From a virus, in IMG/VR virus record IMGVR_UViG_3300028886_000137, positions 1 through 48,939 of that record: a stretch of DNA of 48,939 nucleotides. One strand, given 5' to 3'. The notes beneath the pieces are model-generated. The model saw nothing but the letters and a program-made list of their open reading frames with translations. It ran no database searches and was not told where the DNA came from. The translations under genes were made by a program, and so were the position numbers. This document shows positions 1,533 to 9,049 of this stretch, piece by piece; position 1 is the stretch's first letter, and every line of letters begins with the position of its first letter.

Positions 1533-4049
1533 CCATTATTTTTGTATTATTAATTTCAATCATTTCATATTCATATGTTGTTGCAAACATTGGTTGAATT
1601 CTGCAACAACCTAAATCTGCTTTACACCACAAAATAACACTTTTATATCTACCTCGTCTATTTTTATAGACAGAAAGTTTTATATTTGGTTGTGCAAAAA
1701 TATTAGAACTTAAAATAGGTTCTAATGATTTTATATCATCTGATGAAACTGGAAGTAAAATACTTCCAAAATCAATTTTATCAGCGATAGCTTTTGCACC
1801 TCTAAGAAGATTTTGGTCAGGAATTTTTGCTTCTTTCCATTCTCCATTTAGCTGTGTTGAAGAAAAAATAAAAATTCCATATTGGTTACATATATCTTTT
1901 AATTTCGTTGATAACATAAAAAGAATATTATCTTCACGAAGTTTTACTCCACCAGAACGACGAGTAATTTCTTCAAGAATTTTTAGACTTGTGTGAATAT
2001 AATCATGACACGTTAATCTTATGTTTCCATAAGCGCTGACTAGCTCTTACTGCGATAATCGCAGGACACCTTTTCGAATTGTGTATCAATAACAATTCTA
2101 CTCTCCTGTCCATAAGACTAAGGAGATAGTCGATACAGGTTCTTTTTAGACATTTTTCCAAGTTCTTTTTGTAATAATATCTGCTATAGTTGATTTTGAA
2201 ATATGGTATTTTTCTGCTAATTTTGTATAAGATAATTTATTTTTTTCTTTATCTTCTCTTATTTTTTTTACAATTTCAGCATTTAATTTTGTATGTCTAC
2301 CTTTTTCAAAAACTTCAGGCATTATTAATCCATATCTTTTTCCAGTCCATATATTTAAAAAAGAATTGTAATGCAATCTTTCTTTATATTTTTGATTATA
2401 AATCTCACTAGGACTTTTTTTATTTTGATATGCTTTTCTTAATTCAATAACTTCTTCTTCTGTTAATTTTGCTTGTCCCCAAATTTCTTTTTTTCTATGT
2501 TCTAATGTCTTAGGTTTTTTACAATTTTTTCCACCTGCTTCAACATTATAACCATATGGTACTTGAGTGTTATAATTTTGAATAAGAAAAATTTCCAATT
2601 TATTAAGAATTTCTACATCTTCAATATTTTTTACTAAAACTTTATATTCAAAATTTTCAAATCCATATTTTCTAAATGCTTTATGAATTAATGAATTATA
2701 TTCATTATGATTTGGGTTCTAATAATTACTTTTATGAGCATTATATCGTTCTTGAGGATTAATGGTCTATCCAATATACATTTTACCATTAATTTTATTA
2801 ATATAAGTATAAATAATCCCCATAATAAACTCCTTTCATATTTTTCTTCTTTTTTATATGAAAGAAGTCAGAAGTTATTTGACTATTTTCGTCCAAAAAG
2901 TTTCCCACGGGATTCCCTTGCATTATTGTTTAGGGTTCCCCGTTAGCCTATTATAAATAATAGACCCCGCTGATAAACGGAAAAGTGTTTCACTGTCCCA
3001 ACACCCATATTAGGGTTGAACACATATTTAATATCTTTTTCACGAACATTCTTTTTTATTCTGTCTTCAACATCTTTTAATGAAAAATCTGGTAATTCTT
3101 CAATATAAATAGGACTTTCTTTTAAAATTTTAGCTGCTTCAAAAATACGGTCTTCTTCATCACCTTCATATTTACCATTAATAATATGTTCCTCATTTAC
3201 ATTAGCAAGAAATGCAAGCATCATAGTTTGAATTTCTTCAATTTCTTGCTCTGTTGTAATATAAAGAACTGGCTCTGAAACACCATTTTTAATCCAACCA
3301 AAAGTATCATCATAAATTTTATTGCAACCAATATAACAGGCATCCGCAATCATTGAGCGTGTTTTACCAACACCTGTGGGCGCTGACCGCAAATAAAATT
3401 TTTTTAATCTTGCTCCACGAGTAACAGTATTAATTAATGTTCCATATAAAGGGACTCCTACTTCTGGATGTTCTTTAAATTTATTAATTAATTCATCAAT
3501 ACCATTACCTGCGGAAACTGCATCTCCAAAAGCATCATCAACATATTGTAATCTAATATTACTAATTTTAGTATCAACTAAATTTGCAATATCATCAAGA
3601 GAAGCATTATCTAACCATTCTTCTTGTTTTTGTTTTAATTTTGTATCTAAAATATTGTCAGGGTCATAAATATCTGTTACATTAATTCCATAATTATCAT
3701 AAGCTCTTAATAAAGAAAATTTTTTTAATCTACTATAATAATAATCAAAAGATAGTAAATTGCAATTATCAATAATTTTTAGAATCCATTCATTTCCTTT
3801 ATTTTGCTTATAAATAGCTTCATATTTTGGGCGATCTGATAAAAAATCTGAAATATTCTCGATTGTAATTTTAGTTGCACCTAATTCATGAATCTTATAA
3901 ATTGCTCCAAAAACTATTCTATGAAATTGATTTTCAAAATCTTGGTCTGTAATTATATATTTATCTGTTAAATCTAAAAGTTTCGGATTCATATAGATTG
4001 CGCCAATTACTTGTACTATAGCAGTATTATCAACATACTTAGAACTCAT
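1501..4049 (-). CDS. dnaB: replicative DNA helicase (DnaB family), interrupted by a group I intron; exon1 ~3001..4049, exon2 ~1501..2035
   Basis: N-terminal ORF carries Walker A (APTGVGKT). It runs into an intron-encoded stop. The downstream ORF (...IFIFSSTQLNG...) resembles the DnaB C-terminal region. Phase-2 exon1 plus 1 nt of exon2 restores the frame at the proposed junctions. Confidence 0.7.
2036..3000 (-). mobile_element. group I intron (IA-like core) carrying a GIY-YIG homing endonuclease gene
   Basis: Conserved blocks (..gaaacacttttccgt.., ..gctaacggggaacc...caatcccgtgggaaa..) resemble the T4 td-type intron core. 5' and 3' terminal ~100 nt are near-identical to the second intron at 7692..8646 (shared ...taagaNNtagtcag 3' end). 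Confidence 0.6.
2146..2823 (-). CDS. GIY-YIG homing endonuclease (intron-encoded), 2 in-frame TAG
   Basis: N-terminal GIIYTYINKINGKMYIG(TAG)T motif. C-terminal ORF 2146..2598 with ...PYGYNVEAGG and an HTH-like tail. Confidence 0.75.
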
Positions 4050-4570
4050 CCTTCTTCATTTTCCCCCTCATCCAAGAATGTAAATAATTGACGTTTTTTT
4101 ATAGACCTTTGTGGTCTTGGTATTTTTATTACTACTTCTTCTGGATGATATTCTTCGTATTTAAAATCTTTATTTTTTTGTTGTGCCAACCATAAGTTAT
4201 AATAATAATTAAAAGCATCTTTATAAACATAAGGAACAATTCCAATACCATTATTTGCCTTATCTTTATCACCATCTTTAATTTCATAAAAATATGTTAA
4301 TGCTTTTAAAATACCAGAATATGTAAAATTATATGTGTTTACATAATCATTTATTTGTTTTCTGATTCGAGGACTAACATATGTATCCCCAAATAAATGC
4401 ATTATATATTGTTCAAGTTTTCCTTTATCATCAAGGACTTCTTCAACATGCGTTTCAGCCTTTTCTGCACAAAGTTTATGCGCATATCGTCTTCCATTTA
4501 CTTGAACAAAAGGCTCTTTATCTCTATCAAAGATTTGTTGACAATAATAACATTTAACCTTGTGAGCCAC
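4046..4570 (-). CDS. zinc-finger protein, function unknown (possible helicase-associated)
   Basis: 174-aa ORF with N-terminal CxxC...HxxC. Overlaps the dnaB start by ATGA. Confidence 0.45.
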   Translation of the reverse strand: MAHKVKCYYCQQIFDRDKEPFVQVNGRRYAHKLCAEKAETHVEEVLDDKGKLEQYIMHLFGDTYVSPRIRKQINDYVNTYNFTYSGILKALTYFYEIKDGDKDKANNGIGIVPYVYKDAFNYYYNLWLAQQKNKDFKYEEYHPEEVVIKIPRPQRSIKKRQLFTFLDEGENEEG

Positions 4571-7178: not shown

Positions 7179-7207
7179 ATTATATCATTTTTTTATAAAA
7201 ATGTCAA
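7179..7207 (-). promoter_or_regulatory. sigma70-type promoter (TTGACA-17-TATAAT on the minus strand)
   Basis: Reverse complement reads ttgaca + 17 nt + tataat, directly upstream of 6776..7141. Confidence 0.6.
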
Positions 7208-9049
7208 TTTAAAGAGAAATCTTGAGAAGTTTGCTCATCTATAAAAATCAATTGATTTGCATATGGAAGAGTGCGAGCCCAATTAATAAAACTTTCTCTC
7301 CATTCTGTTAACTTATGAAATCTTCTTTGTCCTTTTGAACAAATTGCAAGAAGATTTTCATAATTCATTGTAACAGTACGAGTTTGAAGCCATCCTTCTG
7401 GAAGCAAACGAACTAATTCTTTCCAATAGCGAACATCTTTAGTTTCATTATAACATCTACGGAGATTTTCGCAATCAATTAAAAGGTTATCCCAAATATT
7501 ATCAACAGTAGTATCTGGACATATAGGATTTCCTTCATAAGGTTTTAAATCACCTACATAATCATCCATTTCAAAACATTCTCTTGTAATAGGATATTCT
7601 GCAAGTTTATGCATTGTAGAAGTACTATTTGCAACAGTACCTACTTTATATGTATCAAATTCTTTCCCGTGTGTTTGATACAAAAAACACGCTGACTATT
7701 TCTTACTATCATATGATAGGAGACCTTTTTGGAATGTGTATCAATAACATCCCTACTCCTCTGCCCAGAAGGCAAAGAGGATAGTCGATACAGGTTATAC
7801 GTTATAATAAATCTTTAATAGTGTAATTATCATTATTTAATATAATTAAACGGATATTATGATTTTTACAATAATCTTGTTTCATTTTATCATGTTTTTG
7901 AAGAATTTCAAATCCTTCGCCCCAAGAACTTTGTGCTTGTTCATAATGTTGTTGTCCATTATACTCTATTAAATGTGATAATTTTCCATTATTAAAAACA
8001 GCAAAATCAAATCTTAATGGTCTTATGTCCTTTAAATCTGGAAATATATATTGCGTAGCAAATTCAATATTATTATCAATTAATAATTGAGTAATAATTT
8101 GTTCATTCTTTGAATGAATACATCCACAAGAGTTTATTTTTCCATCTCTAATATGAGAACCTCTTGTAATAAAAATATTACCACAATATTTACATAAACA
8201 TTTCCATAGAGCAATTTGTTGATTATCAGAGCCAGCTCTTTCTAAAACTTTGATTCCATTATTTTCAAATCCTATCATATCATTAACATTTTTAGACTCT
8301 AATTTTTTACATCCGCAACTTTGAGTATGACCAGATTTTAAATTACGGGTATCAACAATTACTTCATTTCCACATTTACATTTACATTGCCATTTTCCAC
8401 CTTTTATATATTTAATAGGAGTTAAATAACCAAAAATTTGATTGGTTAAATCTTGTCTCGGTTTTGATTGACGCTCTTGTTTCATAATAATACCTCCATT
8501 ATTTTCTATTATTTATGAAAAGCGTTTCAATAACTTTATAAGATTTTGACCCGTATTTTCCCACGAGATTTTACCCTCGTTAGCACATTTCTTTTAAATG
8601 TACCCCGTTGATGAGACGGAAAAGTCTTTCATTGGCAGAAAGTTTTACCAATAAAGTGGAGCTGTAATATCTACACTTACAAAAATTTGGCGAAGAAATT
8701 TACGATGCTCTGGACCAGAACGAATTAATAATTGCGCTAAATGCATATCTTTTGGCCCAATATATGCAACTTCTTTATAATCATAATTTTTAGACTCTTT
8801 TAAAGTACCATTTGTAATTAACCATTCACAATATTTATCTTGTAAATTAAGAAATTCTTTACTATCATCATATTTAGCCTAATCTATTCTATCCCAAGTA
8901 GCCCAAGCATAAGCAACATCAAGAATACCTTCATCATAATCATCAATGATATTAAAATAACTATCACTTAAATTCCAACTATTTTTTGGATTTCGCATGC
9001 CTCTTAAAGCACATTCAAAATTATATACTTTTGTATTTTCAAATTTCAT
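7204..9049 (-). CDS. ThyX-like (flavin-dependent thymidylate synthase-like) protein interrupted by a group I intron; exon1 8647..9049, exon2 7204..7691
   Basis: Exon1 ends ...FVSVDITAPLYW. Exon2 begins (S)CFLYQTHGKEFDTYKV... The pattern resembles the ThyX ...APIFVARQWFRHR... region but lacks the RHR motif. Frames join exactly at the proposed junctions (tgg t | cg tgt). Confidence 0.45.
7692..8646 (-). mobile_element. group I intron with an endonuclease ORF (paralogue of the dnaB intron)
   Basis: Shares the P1-proximal, core (acttttccgt..acggggt..gctaacgagg..cgtgggaaa) and 3' terminal blocks with the intron at 2036..3000. Exon ends are similar (tatgggt / tattggt). 955 nt. Confidence 0.6.
7802..8485 (-). 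CDS. intron-encoded putative homing endonuclease (Cys-rich zinc ribbon + Vsr/PD-(D/E)xK-like C-terminal domain)
   Basis: 227-aa ORF with multiple CxC/CxxC motifs followed by ...FDFAV...IEYNGQQHY..., typical of phage free-standing endonucleases. Confidence 0.5.
   Translation of the reverse strand: MKQERQSKPRQDLTNQIFGYLTPIKYIKGGKWQCKCKCGNEVIVDTRNLKSGHTQSCGCKKLESKNVNDMIGFENNGIKVLERAGSDNQQIALWKCLCKYCGNIFITRGSHIRDGKINSCGCIHSKNEQIITQLLIDNNIEFATQYIFPDLKDIRPLRFDFAVFNNGKLSHLIEYNGQQHYEQAQSSWGEGFEILQKHDKMKQDYCKNHNIRLIILNNDNYTIKDLL

What the first reader, a model, noticed from the sequence alone, without database searches (positions are those of the whole stretch)
2036..8646. Two paralogous group I introns with different homing endonucleases interrupt dnaB and a ThyX-like gene
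Introns at 2036..3000 and 7692..8646 share near-identical 5' and 3' terminal blocks and a td-like core (acggggaacc...caatcccgtgggaaa). They carry unrelated endonuclease genes (GIY-YIG versus zinc ribbon + PD-(D/E)xK-like). The exon 5' ends are similar (tatgggt / tattggt), consistent with a shared internal guide sequence. With the proposed splice sites both host ORFs are restored in frame. These are probably recent homing or ectopic transposition events.
Basis: seen in the sequence. Interest (0 to 1): 0.65.

Follow-up and report, generated by a model that had tools for sequence, protein, structure and literature searches.

The report
Two phage group I introns, boundaries corrected
Two self-splicing-type (group I) introns, each carrying its own homing nuclease gene, interrupt a replicative helicase gene and a ThyX-fold gene of an uncultured gut phage that reads TAG as glutamine. 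They belong to a large intron family with an unusual extra RNA clamp that the standard Rfam model does not detect.

Summary
Two ~1 kb minus-strand insertions share conserved RNA blocks and carry unrelated nuclease genes.

Uninterrupted homologues and a syntenic intron-less relative (L136) place intron A at 2009..3018 (reader: 2036..3000) and intron B at 7668..8646 (reader: 7692..8646). "TATGGGT" lies inside intron A, and the two guide sequences differ.

Host genes:
- An SPbeta YorI-type DnaB-like helicase, 512 aa after splicing.
- A protein with a ThyX fold but no Thy1 Pfam match and no ThyX motif.

Nuclease genes:
- HEG A is GIY-YIG plus HTH, with two in-frame TAG codons.
- HEG B has two Cys-rich modules plus a Vsr-like PD-(D/E)xK fold.

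Both introns belong to a large family (more than 100 copies in viral and gut/rumen contigs). Its td/Twort-like core is strongly supported by covariation. Rfam RF00028 misses every member I scanned:
- P2 is absent.
- Two hairpins sit between P3 and P4.
- The first hairpin's loop kisses L7.2, and this pairing covaries.
- The intron B lineage also lacks P5 and the L9 GNRA loop.

A and B are only 67% identical in the core, so they are not recent copies of each other. Splicing itself was not tested.

The parts
3019..4049 (-). DnaB-like (SPbeta YorI-type) replicative helicase, exon 1. Ends ...AAA UAU GUG UU| (K Y V F-).
   Evidence: Pfam DnaB and DnaB_C hits. 39% identical to SPbeta YorI. Junction KYVF|HDYIHTS matches the intron-less L130 'YIFHDYIHTS' and L136 'KYICHDYIHTS'. 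No in-frame TAG.
2009..3018 (-). Intron A, 1010 nt. Starts CAACCC..., ends ...AUUAACGUG (terminal G at 2009).
   Evidence: Boundaries from homologue junctions and colinearity with L136. An ORF-less relative sits at the same site in L087. Covariation-supported structure.
2899..3018 (-). Intron A, 5' ribozyme half: P1 loop hairpin (ACCC/GGGU), IGS GGACA (~2993-2997), P3 5' strand (~2985-2988), hairpin H1 (2965-2982; kissing nucleotides AUCA at 2971-2974), hairpin H2 (2947-2964), P4-P5-P4' (2907-2943), P6 5' strand.
   Evidence: Coordinates. Helices supported by compensatory changes in the 23-member alignment A2. Kissing loop.
2146..2823 (-). HEG A: GIY-YIG plus C-terminal HTH homing endonuclease, 225 aa, in the P6 loop. 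Two in-frame TAG codons (2767-2769, within the YIGQT motif, and 2719-2721), read as Gln.
   Evidence: Pfam GIY-YIG 30 bits (cut-off 22.6), HTH_3 21.2 bits (below its 23-bit cut-off; E 3e-4). PHROG homing-endonuclease families. 45 of 48 ORF-bearing family members carry related GIY-YIG ORFs. TAG positions read from the translation.
2009..2141 (-). Intron A, 3' ribozyme half: P6 3' strand, J6/7 GUAUC, P7 GACUA, P7.1 (2102-2126), P7.2 (2076-2098; kissing nucleotides UGAU at 2085-2088), P3 3' strand (~2066-2069), P8 (2050-2064), P7 3' strand UAGUC (2038-2042), P9 CUUAUG-GAAA-CAUAAG (2018-2033), J9/10 AUUAACGUG with the terminal G at 2009.
   Evidence: The family nhmmer profile aligns colinearly with the td and Twort cores.
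1501..2008 (-). DnaB-like helicase, exon 2. Starts U CAU GAU UAU (F-HDY...). Stop codon at 1501-1503.
   Evidence: The spliced product is 512 aa, the same length as the uninterrupted L136 protein.
8647..9049 (-). ThyX-fold gene (phrog_6721, function unknown), exon 1. Ends ...UAU UGG U|. One in-frame TAG at 8879-8881.
7668..8646 (-). Intron B, 979 nt. Starts AAAACUUUCU..., ends ...AAACACACG (terminal G at 7668).
   Evidence: Flush break against the intron-less L136. The junction APLYW|WKEFDTYKVG matches the nine uninterrupted homologues whose sequences I read (L001-L005; P0001, P0003, P0014, P0021). One search lists thousands more full-length homologues. P1 is AUUGGU/GCCAAU and P10 is GGAAAG/CUUUCU (read from the sequence).
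8554..8646 (-). Intron B, 5' ribozyme half: P10 and IGS strand CUUUCU-GCCAAU (8624-8642), P3 5' strand, H1 (8603-8621; AUCA at 8609-8612), H2 (8584-8602), P4 closed by an 8-nt loop with no P5 (ACGAG-GGUAAAAU-CUCGU, 8563-8580), P6 5' strand.
   Evidence: The same P5-less form occurs in L011, L048 and L101.
7802..8485 (-). HEG B, 227 aa: two Cys-rich (CxCxC...CGC) modules plus a C-terminal Vsr-like PD-(D/E)xK nuclease domain. No in-frame TAG.
7668..7796 (-). Intron B, 3' ribozyme half: P6 3' strand, J6/7, P7, P7.1 (7758-7780), P7.2 (7731-7753; UGAU at 7740-7743), P3 3' strand, P8 (7707-7718), P7 3' strand (7694-7698), P9 GUGUUU-UUUGUAUC-AAACAC (7671-7690, no GNRA loop), terminal G at 7668.
7204..7667 (-). 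ThyX-fold gene, exon 2. Starts GG AAA GAA UUU GAU (W-KEFD...).
47734..47825 (-). Context: suppressor tRNA with anticodon CUA, within an 11-tRNA cluster. It would decode the in-frame TAG codons of HEG A and other genes.
   Evidence: ARAGORN. In-frame TAG at the Gln position of the conserved YIGQT motif.

Best explanation
Both insertions are mobile group I introns of one large phage-borne family with a td/Twort-like (IA2-type) catalytic core.

How they most likely work (inferred, not shown):
- After transcription, each intron folds.
- P1 pairs the last exon nucleotides with the guide sequence, with U.G at the cleavage site: UGUU|C with GGACA in A, AUUGGU with GCCAAU in B.
- An external guanosine attacks the 5' splice site.
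- The terminal G (2009 in A, 7668 in B) then docks in P7, and the exons are ligated.
- This restores a 512-aa YorI-type DnaB helicase (junction KYVF-HDYIHTS, in the Walker-B region) and a 288-aa ThyX-fold protein (junction APLYW-WKEFDTYKVG, its most conserved block).

Each intron carries a homing endonuclease gene in the P6 loop:
- A: GIY-YIG plus HTH.
- B: two Cys-rich modules plus a Vsr-like PD-(D/E)xK domain.
The nuclease presumably cuts intron-less alleles in co-infecting relatives and spreads the intron by repair.

The family's periphery departs from td and Twort:
- There is no P2.
- Two hairpins are inserted between the P3 5' strand and P4.
- Four nucleotides of the first hairpin's loop pair with four nucleotides of an enlarged L7.2 loop. 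This would clamp the insertion onto the P7.1-P7.2 subdomain.
- The intron B lineage has also lost P5 and the GNRA loop of P9.

Shown here: sequence anatomy, covariation, exact insertion sites relative to intron-less alleles, and the protein family or fold assignments. Inferred: self-splicing, endonuclease activity and homing.
For: Boundaries:
- Nine uninterrupted homologues of the ThyX-fold protein whose sequences I read have APxYWWKExDTYKVG (L001-L005; P0001, P0003, P0014, P0021). One search lists thousands more full-length homologues.
- Intron-less helicases read YIFHDYIHTS (L130), KYICHDYIHTS (L136) and VEYVYFDYIHSS (SPbeta YorI).
- BLASTN against the syntenic intron-less contig L136 breaks exactly at 8647|7667 and at about 3025|2010.
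- An ORF-less intron sits at the same helicase site in L087.

RNA structure:
- On 23 family members, 94.6% of cells are paired, against about 41% with slid partners.
- 32 of 53 pairs show changes on both sides. 0 of 500 shuffles reach the observed values.
- P3, H1, H2, P4, P7.1, P7.2 and P9 all covary.
- The P9 hairpin follows UAGUCAG in nearly all of the 67 elements.
- Kissing loop: 98.9% paired, 3 of 4 pairs with double changes. Across 116 elements there are at least 7 distinct complementary combinations.

Homology to bona fide group I introns:
- The family profile hits the td core at E 5.6e-5.
- It hits Twort orf142 introns 1 and 2 at E 1.4e-6 and 2.7e-4, colinearly through P4-P6 and through P7 to P9.

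Proteins.

Mobility:
- L136 lacks both introns.
- L135 has a related intron at a different helicase site.
- More than 100 copies occur in viral and MAG contigs, often several per contig.
Against: - Rfam RF00028 gives no hit on either intron even at E<=10, nor on any of the 14 family loci scanned at gathering threshold, ORF-less members included, nor on L123 and L059 at E<=1. The same model scores the Twort introns at 64-101 bits. It scores td at only 42.5 bits, below its gathering score.
- P1 of intron A is short, 4-5 bp.
- Intron B lacks P5, so the J4/5 internal loop that contacts the cleavage-site wobble pair in known group I structures (from my own knowledge) is present only as a hairpin loop. 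B may not self-splice without help.
- There are no RNA data, so splicing is not shown.
- The family was retrieved with an exact 14-mer covering J6/7-P7. The invariance of those positions therefore says nothing.
- The tested structure was drawn partly from intron A, and the sequences are related to each other. Both favour the observed values over the controls to some degree.
Confidence: 0.88

Rival explanations
1. Intron B (and possibly A) keeps the group I scaffold but no longer self-splices. It would need a protein cofactor, either its own endonuclease acting as a maturase or a host or phage RNA chaperone. The reason would be the loss of P5 and of the L9 tetraloop in the B lineage.
For: - P4 is closed by the 8-nt loop GGUAAAAU with no P5 in window B, L011, L048 and L101.
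- The same four elements lack the GNRA loop in P9 that nearly all other members have.
- Protein-assisted splicing of group I introns is known (review PMC3984707).
Against: - The rest of the core (P3, P4, P6, P7, P7.1, P7.2, P8, kissing loop) is intact and covaries with the family.
- The A-rich loop could stand in for J4/5 and J5/4.
- The lineage persists in several contigs with intact host exons. Cluster P0048 is the exon 2 ORF of such relatives at 97% identity.
Confidence: 0.25
2. The insertions are homing-endonuclease cassettes that have split the two genes into separately translated fragments, with no RNA splicing. Some T4-like phage genes are split by free-standing endonuclease genes in this way.
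For: - The window holds two free-standing GIY-YIG genes (9489..10499 and 16112..16825).
- ORF callers report the exons as separate proteins, for example P0048.
Against: - About 250 nt of conserved RNA with compensatory base changes flanks each ORF.
- An ORF-less version sits at the same helicase site (L087).
- Exon 2 of each gene begins in mid-codon, and the split falls inside a conserved motif.
- Precise excision gives exactly the sequence length of the uninterrupted alleles.
Confidence: 0.04
3. The two elements are decaying, non-functional intron remnants, and the two host genes are pseudogenes in this phage.
For: There is no direct evidence of splicing. Rfam gives no hit. Intron B lacks P5.
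Against: - Both endonuclease ORFs are intact: A under TAG=Gln, B in any code.
- All core helices are intact in both introns.
- The exons have no frameshifts or stops.
- The helicase is the only DnaB-type gene in an otherwise intact SPbeta-like replication module.
Confidence: 0.05

Closest known systems
T4 td intron with I-TevI (group IA2)
   Same: - The same strings occur in P4/P4' (UAA(A)CGGGGAACC ... AAUCCCGUG), in P7 to P7.1 (CGACUAUC...GGAGUAG), in J7.2/3 (CGAAA) and in P7' (AUAGUC).
- P7.1 and P7.2 lie between P7 and P3'.
- A GIY-YIG endonuclease ORF sits in the P6 loop.
- The host is a phage nucleotide-metabolism or replication gene.
- The family profile hits the td core at E 5.6e-5.
   Different: - td has P2 between P1 and P3, and P3 joins P4 through about 4 nt. 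This family has no P2 and has two hairpins between P3 and P4.
- td L7.2 is 4 nt (AAGU). Here it is 9 nt and pairs with the H1 loop.
- td has a long P9-P9.2 tail. Here there is a single P9 hairpin.
- HEG A contains recoded TAG codons.
Staphylococcus phage Twort orf142 introns (IA2, ORF-less; intron 2 has a crystal structure, from my own knowledge)
   Same: - The arrangement GAAA + P3 5' strand.
- P4-P6 sequences.
- CGACUAU ... AGUAG ... CGAAAUGG + P3' ... AUAGUC.
- A P9 hairpin with a GAAA loop.
- nhmmer E 1.4e-6 and 2.7e-4.
   Different: - Rfam RF00028 scores the Twort introns at 64-101 bits but finds nothing in this family.
- Twort has P2 and a direct J3/4, with no H1/H2 insertion and no H1-L7.2 kissing loop.
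- Twort also has P9.1.
I-Bth0305I (EDxHD family, Vsr-like homing endonuclease of a Bacillus phage intron; PDB 3r3p)
   Different: - No sequence-level match to any PDB chain, even with a profile.
- The conserved residues of HEG B (D160, E174, N176, Q179, H180) follow an E-x-N-G-x-Q-H pattern, not EDxHD.
- The N-terminal DNA-binding part consists of two or three CxCxC...CGC modules.
Recoded intron endonuclease in 'Agate' alternatively coded gut phages (Borges et al., bioRxiv 10.1101/2021.08.26.457843)
   Same: A group I intron endonuclease gene with in-frame recoded stop codons, inserted in an early or replication gene of a gut phage that carries a suppressor tRNA. The authors propose that recoding delays endonuclease production.
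   Different: - The case they describe concerns TGA-versus-TGG (Trp) codon use. Here the recoded codon is TAG, read as Gln.
- Only HEG A is recoded (2 TAG). HEG B has none.
- No RNA structure or family analysis was found in the passages I read from that paper.
- I did not test whether this window belongs to that clade.
Bacillus phage SPbeta replication module (yorF-yorH-yorI)
   Same: The gene order ThyX-fold / 121 aa / YorF / AAA_24 / YorH / DnaB-like is shown for relatives L135 and L136 with Pfam YorF and YorH hits, and the window is colinear with them. The helicase is 39% identical to YorI.
   Different: The yorI copies retrieved here are uninterrupted (one piece each). The window's helicase carries intron A, and relative L135 carries a related intron at another site.

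Membership tests
Group I intron | P1: the 5' exon end pairs with an internal guide sequence, with U at -1 opposite G | tested here: met
   - B: AUUGGU|/GCCAAU, 6 bp, with U.G at the splice site.
- A: UGUU|C/GGACA, 4-5 bp, with U.G at the splice site.
- The guide lies at the homologous position in both, just 5' of GAAA + P3.
- P10 in B is GGAAAG/CUUUCU, 6 bp.
Group I intron | The intron ends in G (omega-G), and exon ligation restores the gene | tested here: met
   At the junctions defined by intron-less alleles, both introns end in G (2009 and 7668). 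The products match uninterrupted homologues.
Group I intron | Conserved core P3-P8 with the P3/P7 pseudoknot, and P4-P6 | tested here: met
   Covariation on A2. P3 has 6 of 6 pairs with double changes, P7.2 has 7 of 7, P9 has 6 of 6, and P4 has 1 pair switching GC to AU. P7 is invariant, partly because of how the family was retrieved. P8 is a perfect hairpin of different sequence in each member but was not counted formally.
Group I intron | P5 with the J4/5 internal loop | tested here: not met
   Met in intron A (CCCU/AGGG). Absent in intron B and in L011, L048 and L101, where P4 is closed by GGUAAAAU.
Group I intron | Match to the Rfam covariance model RF00028 | tested here: not met
   No hit at gathering threshold or at E<=10 on either intron. 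No family-member hit on the 14 family loci scanned at gathering threshold, nor on L123 and L059 at E<=1. Controls: Twort 64-101 bits; td 42.5 bits, below the 50-bit gathering score.
Group I intron | Guanosine-dependent self-splicing | not testable with these tools
   Needs in vitro transcription and splicing, or RNA-seq.
Subgroup IA2 (td/Twort type) | P7.1 and P7.2 hairpins between P7 and the P3 3' strand | tested here: met
   Both helices covary (helices 8 and 9). The family profile aligns colinearly with td and Twort.
Subgroup IA2 (td/Twort type) | P2 between P1 and P3, and a short J3/4 joining P3 directly to P4 (as in td and Twort) | tested here: not met
   The guide sequence is followed directly by GAAA + the P3 5' strand. 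Two covarying hairpins (H1, H2; 45-110 nt) lie between P3 and P4. The td and Twort sequences were read for comparison.
GIY-YIG homing endonucleases (HEG A) | GIY-YIG catalytic domain | tested here: met
   Pfam PF01541 at 30 bits (cut-off 22.6). PHROG homing-endonuclease families at E 7e-30. The motif reads ...GIIYTY...KMYIG(TAG=Q)T.
EDxHD / Vsr-like homing endonucleases (HEG B) | Vsr-like PD-(D/E)xK catalytic fold | tested here: met
EDxHD / Vsr-like homing endonucleases (HEG B) | EDxHD sequence motif, or detectable sequence homology | tested here: inconclusive
   No PDB sequence hit with the protein or with a profile. The conserved E174-x-N176-G-x-Q179-H180 is not the EDxHD pattern as I recall it. 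No residue-level superposition was made.
ThyX (flavin-dependent thymidylate synthase, Pfam Thy1) | Pfam Thy1 match and the ThyX RHRxxS motif | tested here: not met
   No Pfam hit at E<=0.01. None of the 120 homologues listed has a precomputed Pfam domain. The position of the motif reads DTYKVGTVANSTSTMH. The motif itself is recalled from my own knowledge.
ThyX (flavin-dependent thymidylate synthase, Pfam Thy1) | ThyX fold | tested here: met
   The top 50 Foldseek PDB hits are all ThyX/FDTS or the ThyX-like PolB dUMP methylase. Best E is 2e-6, TM 0.42 (query) and 0.54 (target), at 11-16% identity. Model pLDDT 84.
DnaB-like replicative helicase | DnaB N-terminal and C-terminal (RecA-type) domains | tested here: met
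   Pfam DnaB_C 47 bits and DnaB 27.5 bits, both above their cut-offs. Full-length alignment with SPbeta YorI.

The most novel reading that the evidence does not exclude
The family may be an undescribed structural subclass of group I ribozymes derived from the IA2 type.
- P2 is replaced by a two-hairpin domain inserted in J3/4.
- That domain is locked onto an enlarged L7.2 by a 4-bp kissing interaction.
- One lineage (intron B) works with a P4-P6 domain reduced to P4 plus a loop plus P6, having lost P5 and the L9 tetraloop together.

If so, current covariance models systematically miss a common intron type in gut and rumen phages of Bacillota. The B lineage would then be a natural minimal P4-P6 domain.
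Probability: 0.4. Interest if true: 0.6.

Novelty: new variant of a known kind. Interest (0 to 1): 0.5.

Why it matters
Practical consequences:
- Gene callers split the helicase and the ThyX-fold gene of these phages into fragments (for example cluster P0048), and Rfam does not flag the cause. A family-specific model would repair the annotation of many gut and rumen phage genomes.
- More than 100 copies were found with a single 14-mer.

Consequences for RNA structure:
- The family shows a group I core tolerating a large insertion in J3/4, normally a short and conserved joiner (from my own knowledge). The insertion is stabilised by a new, clearly covarying loop-loop contact.
- A sister lineage has lost P5 together with the GNRA loop of P9. 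In other group I structures, as I recall, that loop docks on P5. This is a natural test of how much of P4-P6 is needed.

Consequences for phage biology:
- The endonuclease of intron A contains TAG codons, while its host helicase gene has none. The endonuclease can be made only when the phage suppressor tRNA is active.
- This fits an already published idea that recoding delays endonuclease expression.

Tried and rejected
1. Rfam Intron_gpI. There was no hit on the window at gathering threshold, none on either intron at E<=10, and none on ORF-less relatives. Controls with td and Twort show that the model is insensitive to this family. The result is not evidence against group I identity.

2. They put the 3' site only 2 nt after the P7 3' strand and leave 15 and 8 extra residues.

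3. My own first alternative for A (5' site after AUGGGU at 3003, 3' site after AACG; product ...NPNMG|CHDY...). I rejected it once YorI, VRE9_4, L130 and L136 showed KYVF-HDYIH with nothing in between.

4. Pairing of J6/7 GUAUC with L7.2 GAUAC. It cannot be tested, because J6/7 is invariant by the way the family was retrieved. The covarying H1-L7.2 pairing replaces it.

5. A third intron around the GIY-YIG gene at 16112..16825. I rejected this because gyrB (16910..18949) is complete and the downstream ORF is RNase H. The family profile finds only the two copies in the window.

6. A close relative among deposited phage genomes. Megablast of window 1-24000 found none. The ORF-less core gives only weak hits (68-85% over parts of the query) in Enterococcus and Enterocloster phages.

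7. Sequence links of HEG B and of the ThyX-fold protein to solved structures. There were none. Only fold searches worked.

8. Literature searches for a hairpin insertion between P3 and P4, for 'P3.1' and for 'L7.2' in group I introns. Nothing relevant turned up in the held library. This does not prove that the feature is undescribed.

9. I did not build a covariance model of the family. The ORF in P6 splits the hits, and a full-length model would probably exceed the calibration limit. An nhmmer profile was used instead.

Full report
**1. What is in the sequence**

All genes in window 1..10000 lie on the minus strand. Aligning the reverse complements of 2000-3040 and 7660-8690 shows conserved blocks at both ends around two unrelated ORFs.
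- AACCTGTATCGACTATC occurs exactly twice in the window, against 0.08 expected.
- TGTTATTGATACACA and GAAA[C/G]ACTTTTCCGT are also shared.

The core observation is therefore real.

Several obviously real ORFs contain in-frame TAG codons. In the GIY-YIG ORF of intron A, a TAG stands at the Gln position of the canonical YIGQT motif. ARAGORN finds a tRNA with anticodon CUA at 47734..47825 within an 11-tRNA cluster. The window therefore comes from a phage that reads TAG as Gln.

**2. Corrected boundaries**

*ThyX-like gene.*
- Five uninterrupted phage homologues read ...TAPMYWWKEYDTYKVGTVANSTSTMH... with no insert.
- So do the four closest metagenomic homologues I read: P0001, P0003, P0014 and P0021. 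They are 288-299 aa long and 58-85% identical to the query.
- This fixes the junction at UAUUGGU|GGAAAG. Intron B is therefore 7668..8646.

*Helicase.*
- SPbeta YorI and Enterococcus phage VRE9_4 read VEYVY-FDYIHSS and VKYFR-FDYIHTS.
- Closer intron-less relatives read YIFHDYIHTS (L130, 75% identical) and KYICHDYIHTS (L136).
- The only U|...G| pair of sites that yields KYVF-HDYIHTS is GUGUU|C...CGUG|UCAUGAU. Intron A is therefore 2009..3018.
- The spliced product is 512 aa, the same as the uninterrupted L136 gene.

*DNA colinearity.* L136 is a syntenic contig with the gene order ThyX-fold / 121 aa / YorF / AAA_24 / YorH / DnaB. BLASTN against it breaks flush at window 8647|7667 (L136 6406|6407) and at about 3025|2010 (L136 11116..11121).

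*Related copies.*
- L087 holds an ORF-less copy of intron A at the same site...AAATATGTGTT|TCGCCC...GACCGTG|TC.
- L127 (helicase 87% identical) holds an ORF-bearing copy.
- L135 has a related intron at a different helicase site, near window 1843.

**3. RNA architecture**

An exact 14-mer from J6/7-P7 retrieved more than 119 viral contigs. In 67 elements the 5' core GCUAACGRRG lies upstream and UAGUCAG lies downstream. About ten of these have no ORF.

The layout, 5' to 3', is:
- P1 (5' exon end with the guide sequence), then GAAA
- P3 5' strand, then UUUU
- hairpin H1
- hairpin H2, then GCUAA
- P4, P5, P4'
- P6 (GGG/CCU), with the ORF in its loop
- J6/7 GUAUC
- P7 GACUA
- P7.1, then GUAG
- P7.2, then CGAAA(A/U)G
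- P3 3' strand
- P8, then GUAAGAnn
- P7 3' strand UAGUC, then AG
- P9, with a GAAA loop in nearly all members
- a few nucleotides ending in G

I tested this structure on an alignment of 23 members with the P6 loop trimmed (A2).
- 94.6% of cells form standard pairs, against 37-44% when the partners are slid.
- 32 of 53 pairs change on both sides.
- 0 of 500 shuffles reach the observed values.
- P3, H1, H2, P7.1, P7.2 and P9 are rich in compensatory changes. P4 switches one G-C pair to A-U, which is exactly the difference between introns A and B.
- P7 never varies, partly because of how the family was retrieved.

Caveats: the structure was drawn from intron A, and the sequences are related to each other. 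Both favour the observed values over the controls.

**4. Is it a group I intron?**

Rfam RF00028 finds nothing:
- nothing on the window;
- nothing on the introns at E<=10;
- nothing on any of the 14 family loci scanned at gathering threshold, ORF-less members included, nor on L123 and L059 at E<=1.

Controls:
- The T4-type td intron scores 42.5 bits, below the gathering score of 50. Only its 3' half aligns sensibly.
- The three ORF-less Twort orf142 introns score 64-101 bits.

The miss is therefore specific to this family. RF00028 expects P2 hairpins before P3 and a 3-nt J3/4 between P3 and P4. Here P2 is absent and two hairpins separate P3 from P4.

Homology to genuine group I introns is nevertheless detectable. 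An nhmmer profile of A2 hits the td core (L134 2167-2251, P7 through P7') at E 5.6e-5. That is the only hit in the locus. It also hits Twort introns 1 and 2 at E 1.4e-6 and 2.7e-4, colinearly.

Other defining features also fit:
- U.G at the 5' splice site. P1 is strong in B (AUUGGU/GCCAAU) and weak in A (UGUU|C/GGACA).
- A 6-bp P10 in B (GGAAAG/CUUUCU).
- A terminal G in both introns.
- The P3/P7 pseudoknot.

**5. Unusual features**

(a) *Kissing loop.* The H1 loop and the 9-nt L7.2 loop form a 4-bp pairing: AUCA at 2971-2974 with UGAU at 2085-2088 in A, and 8609-8612 with 7740-7743 in B.
- On A2, 98.9% of cells are paired and 3 of 4 pairs change on both sides.
- There are 12 double-change cells, against 3.0 +/- 1.4 in shuffles. 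Slid controls stay at or below 52%.
- Across 116 non-redundant elements, the complementary combinations include ATCA/TGAT (44), ACCA/TGGT (10), GCCA/TGGC (5), GCTA/TAGC, ATTA/TAAT, ATGA/TCAT and GTCA/TGAC.
- Most non-matching rows look like 1-nt register shifts caused by my fixed-offset extraction.
- td and Twort have a 4-nt L7.2 and no such hairpins.

(b) *Loss of P5.* Intron B and its relatives L011, L048 and L101 have no P5 (ACGAG-GGUAAAAU-CUCGU). These same elements lack the GNRA loop in P9. In other group I structures, as I recall, L9 docks on P5. The joint loss is coherent, but it may reflect a single evolutionary event.

(c) I found no description of either feature in the held literature. 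This does not exclude prior description elsewhere.

**6. Proteins**

*Helicase.* Pfam DnaB_C and DnaB. It sits in an SPbeta-like module, as shown by the YorF and YorH hits in relatives.

*'ThyX-like' gene.*
- No Pfam hit. PHROG 6721, function unknown.
- An AF2 model (pLDDT 84) matches only ThyX/FDTS and the ThyX-like PolB methylase. Best E is 2e-6, TM 0.42-0.55, at 11-16% identity.
- It therefore has a ThyX fold, but the ThyX motif region reads DTYKVGTVANSTSTMH. It should not be called ThyX.

*HEG A.* GIY-YIG above the Pfam cut-off, plus an HTH_3 hit just below its cut-off, with two TAG codons. 45 of the 48 ORF-bearing family members carry related GIY-YIG genes.

*HEG B.*
- No Pfam hit. PHROG homing and intron-nuclease families.
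- 545 homologues with two or three CxCxC...CGC modules.
- AF2 pLDDT 87.
- No sequence-level PDB match.

**7. History**

The cores of A and B are 67% identical. The 5' block of each is 85-87% identical to that of a same-site intron in another contig (L036 for A; L011/L048 for B). L127, L087 and L072 carry further same-site A-type copies. They are two site-specific lineages of one family, not recent copies of each other.

Intron presence or absence among syntenic relatives supports mobility.

The family is common in gut and rumen contigs binned with Bacillota. Many of these contigs are 100-170 kb, and several copies often occur per contig.

Recoded intron endonucleases in alternatively coded gut phages have been noted before (Borges et al.).

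**8. Verdict**

These are very probably genuine mobile group I introns. The splice sites are corrected here. The claims of a shared guide sequence and of recent duplication do not hold.

The family's periphery and its invisibility to Rfam make it a structural variant worth describing. Splicing remains to be shown.

Noticed in passing
window 47734..47825 (-), with tRNA cluster 43465..48776: A suppressor tRNA with anticodon CUA sits in an 11-tRNA cluster. Many ORFs have in-frame TAG, for example 4685..5680 (1), 9489..10499 (5), 16112..16825 (8), 20341..22734 (9) and 36257..37720 (6). A TAG replaces Gln in the YIGQT motif. The phage uses TAG=Gln, and standard-code ORF calling fragments its genes.
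   Followed up: partly
window 9489..10499 (-) and 16112..16825 (-): Two free-standing GIY-YIG endonuclease genes. One lies upstream of the ThyX-fold gene. The other lies between gyrB (16910..18949) and RNase H (15579..16085). They have 5 and 8 in-frame TAG codons. The neighbouring replication genes have 0-1. Selfish nuclease genes look preferentially recoded here.
   Followed up: partly
L135 (ENA ERZ27291668 k119_958517) ~11288..12369, against window ~1843: A sister contig of the intron-less L136 carries a related intron (UAGUCAG + P9, with a 260-aa GIY-YIG ORF) at a different site of the same helicase gene, after ...STQLNG. The same gene is therefore invaded at two or more sites by one intron family.
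   Followed up: partly
L035, L017, L024, L057, L065, L076, L100, L114, L118 (P1 loop): In a subset of family members the P1 loop contains AAGAGAUAGUCUGG. This nearly duplicates the J8/7 to P7 3' strand (AAGAGAUAGUCAG). It could pair with the P7 5' strand as an alternative fold. Neither window intron has it.
   Followed up: no
L011, L014, L017, L018, L030, L048, L058, L065, L066, L069, L084, L127: A conserved extra hairpin (...UUUUAGGAAACGAAG...) is inserted between P7.2 and the CGAAA joiner in a subset of family members. That subset includes L127, the closest relative of intron A. The window introns lack it.
   Followed up: no
window 2824..2870 (-): A stem, UUUCAUAU...AUAUGAAA, lies just upstream of the GGAG ribosome-binding site of HEG A and overlaps its start. 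It may limit translation of the endonuclease, as I recall for I-TevI in td. It was neither folded nor tested.
   Followed up: no
window 8647..9049 (-), residues ~30-95 of the ThyX-fold protein: This protein and its close relatives carry an insertion of about 50-60 residues relative to the Clostridium and Enterocloster phage homologues (alignment). Its function is unknown.
   Followed up: no
L116 13518..13821 and 14842..14969 (-): The same viral contig that holds ORF-less members of this family also holds two introns of a more canonical type, which Rfam RF00028 does detect (59 and 52 bits). Different group I lineages coexist in one phage genome.
   Followed up: no
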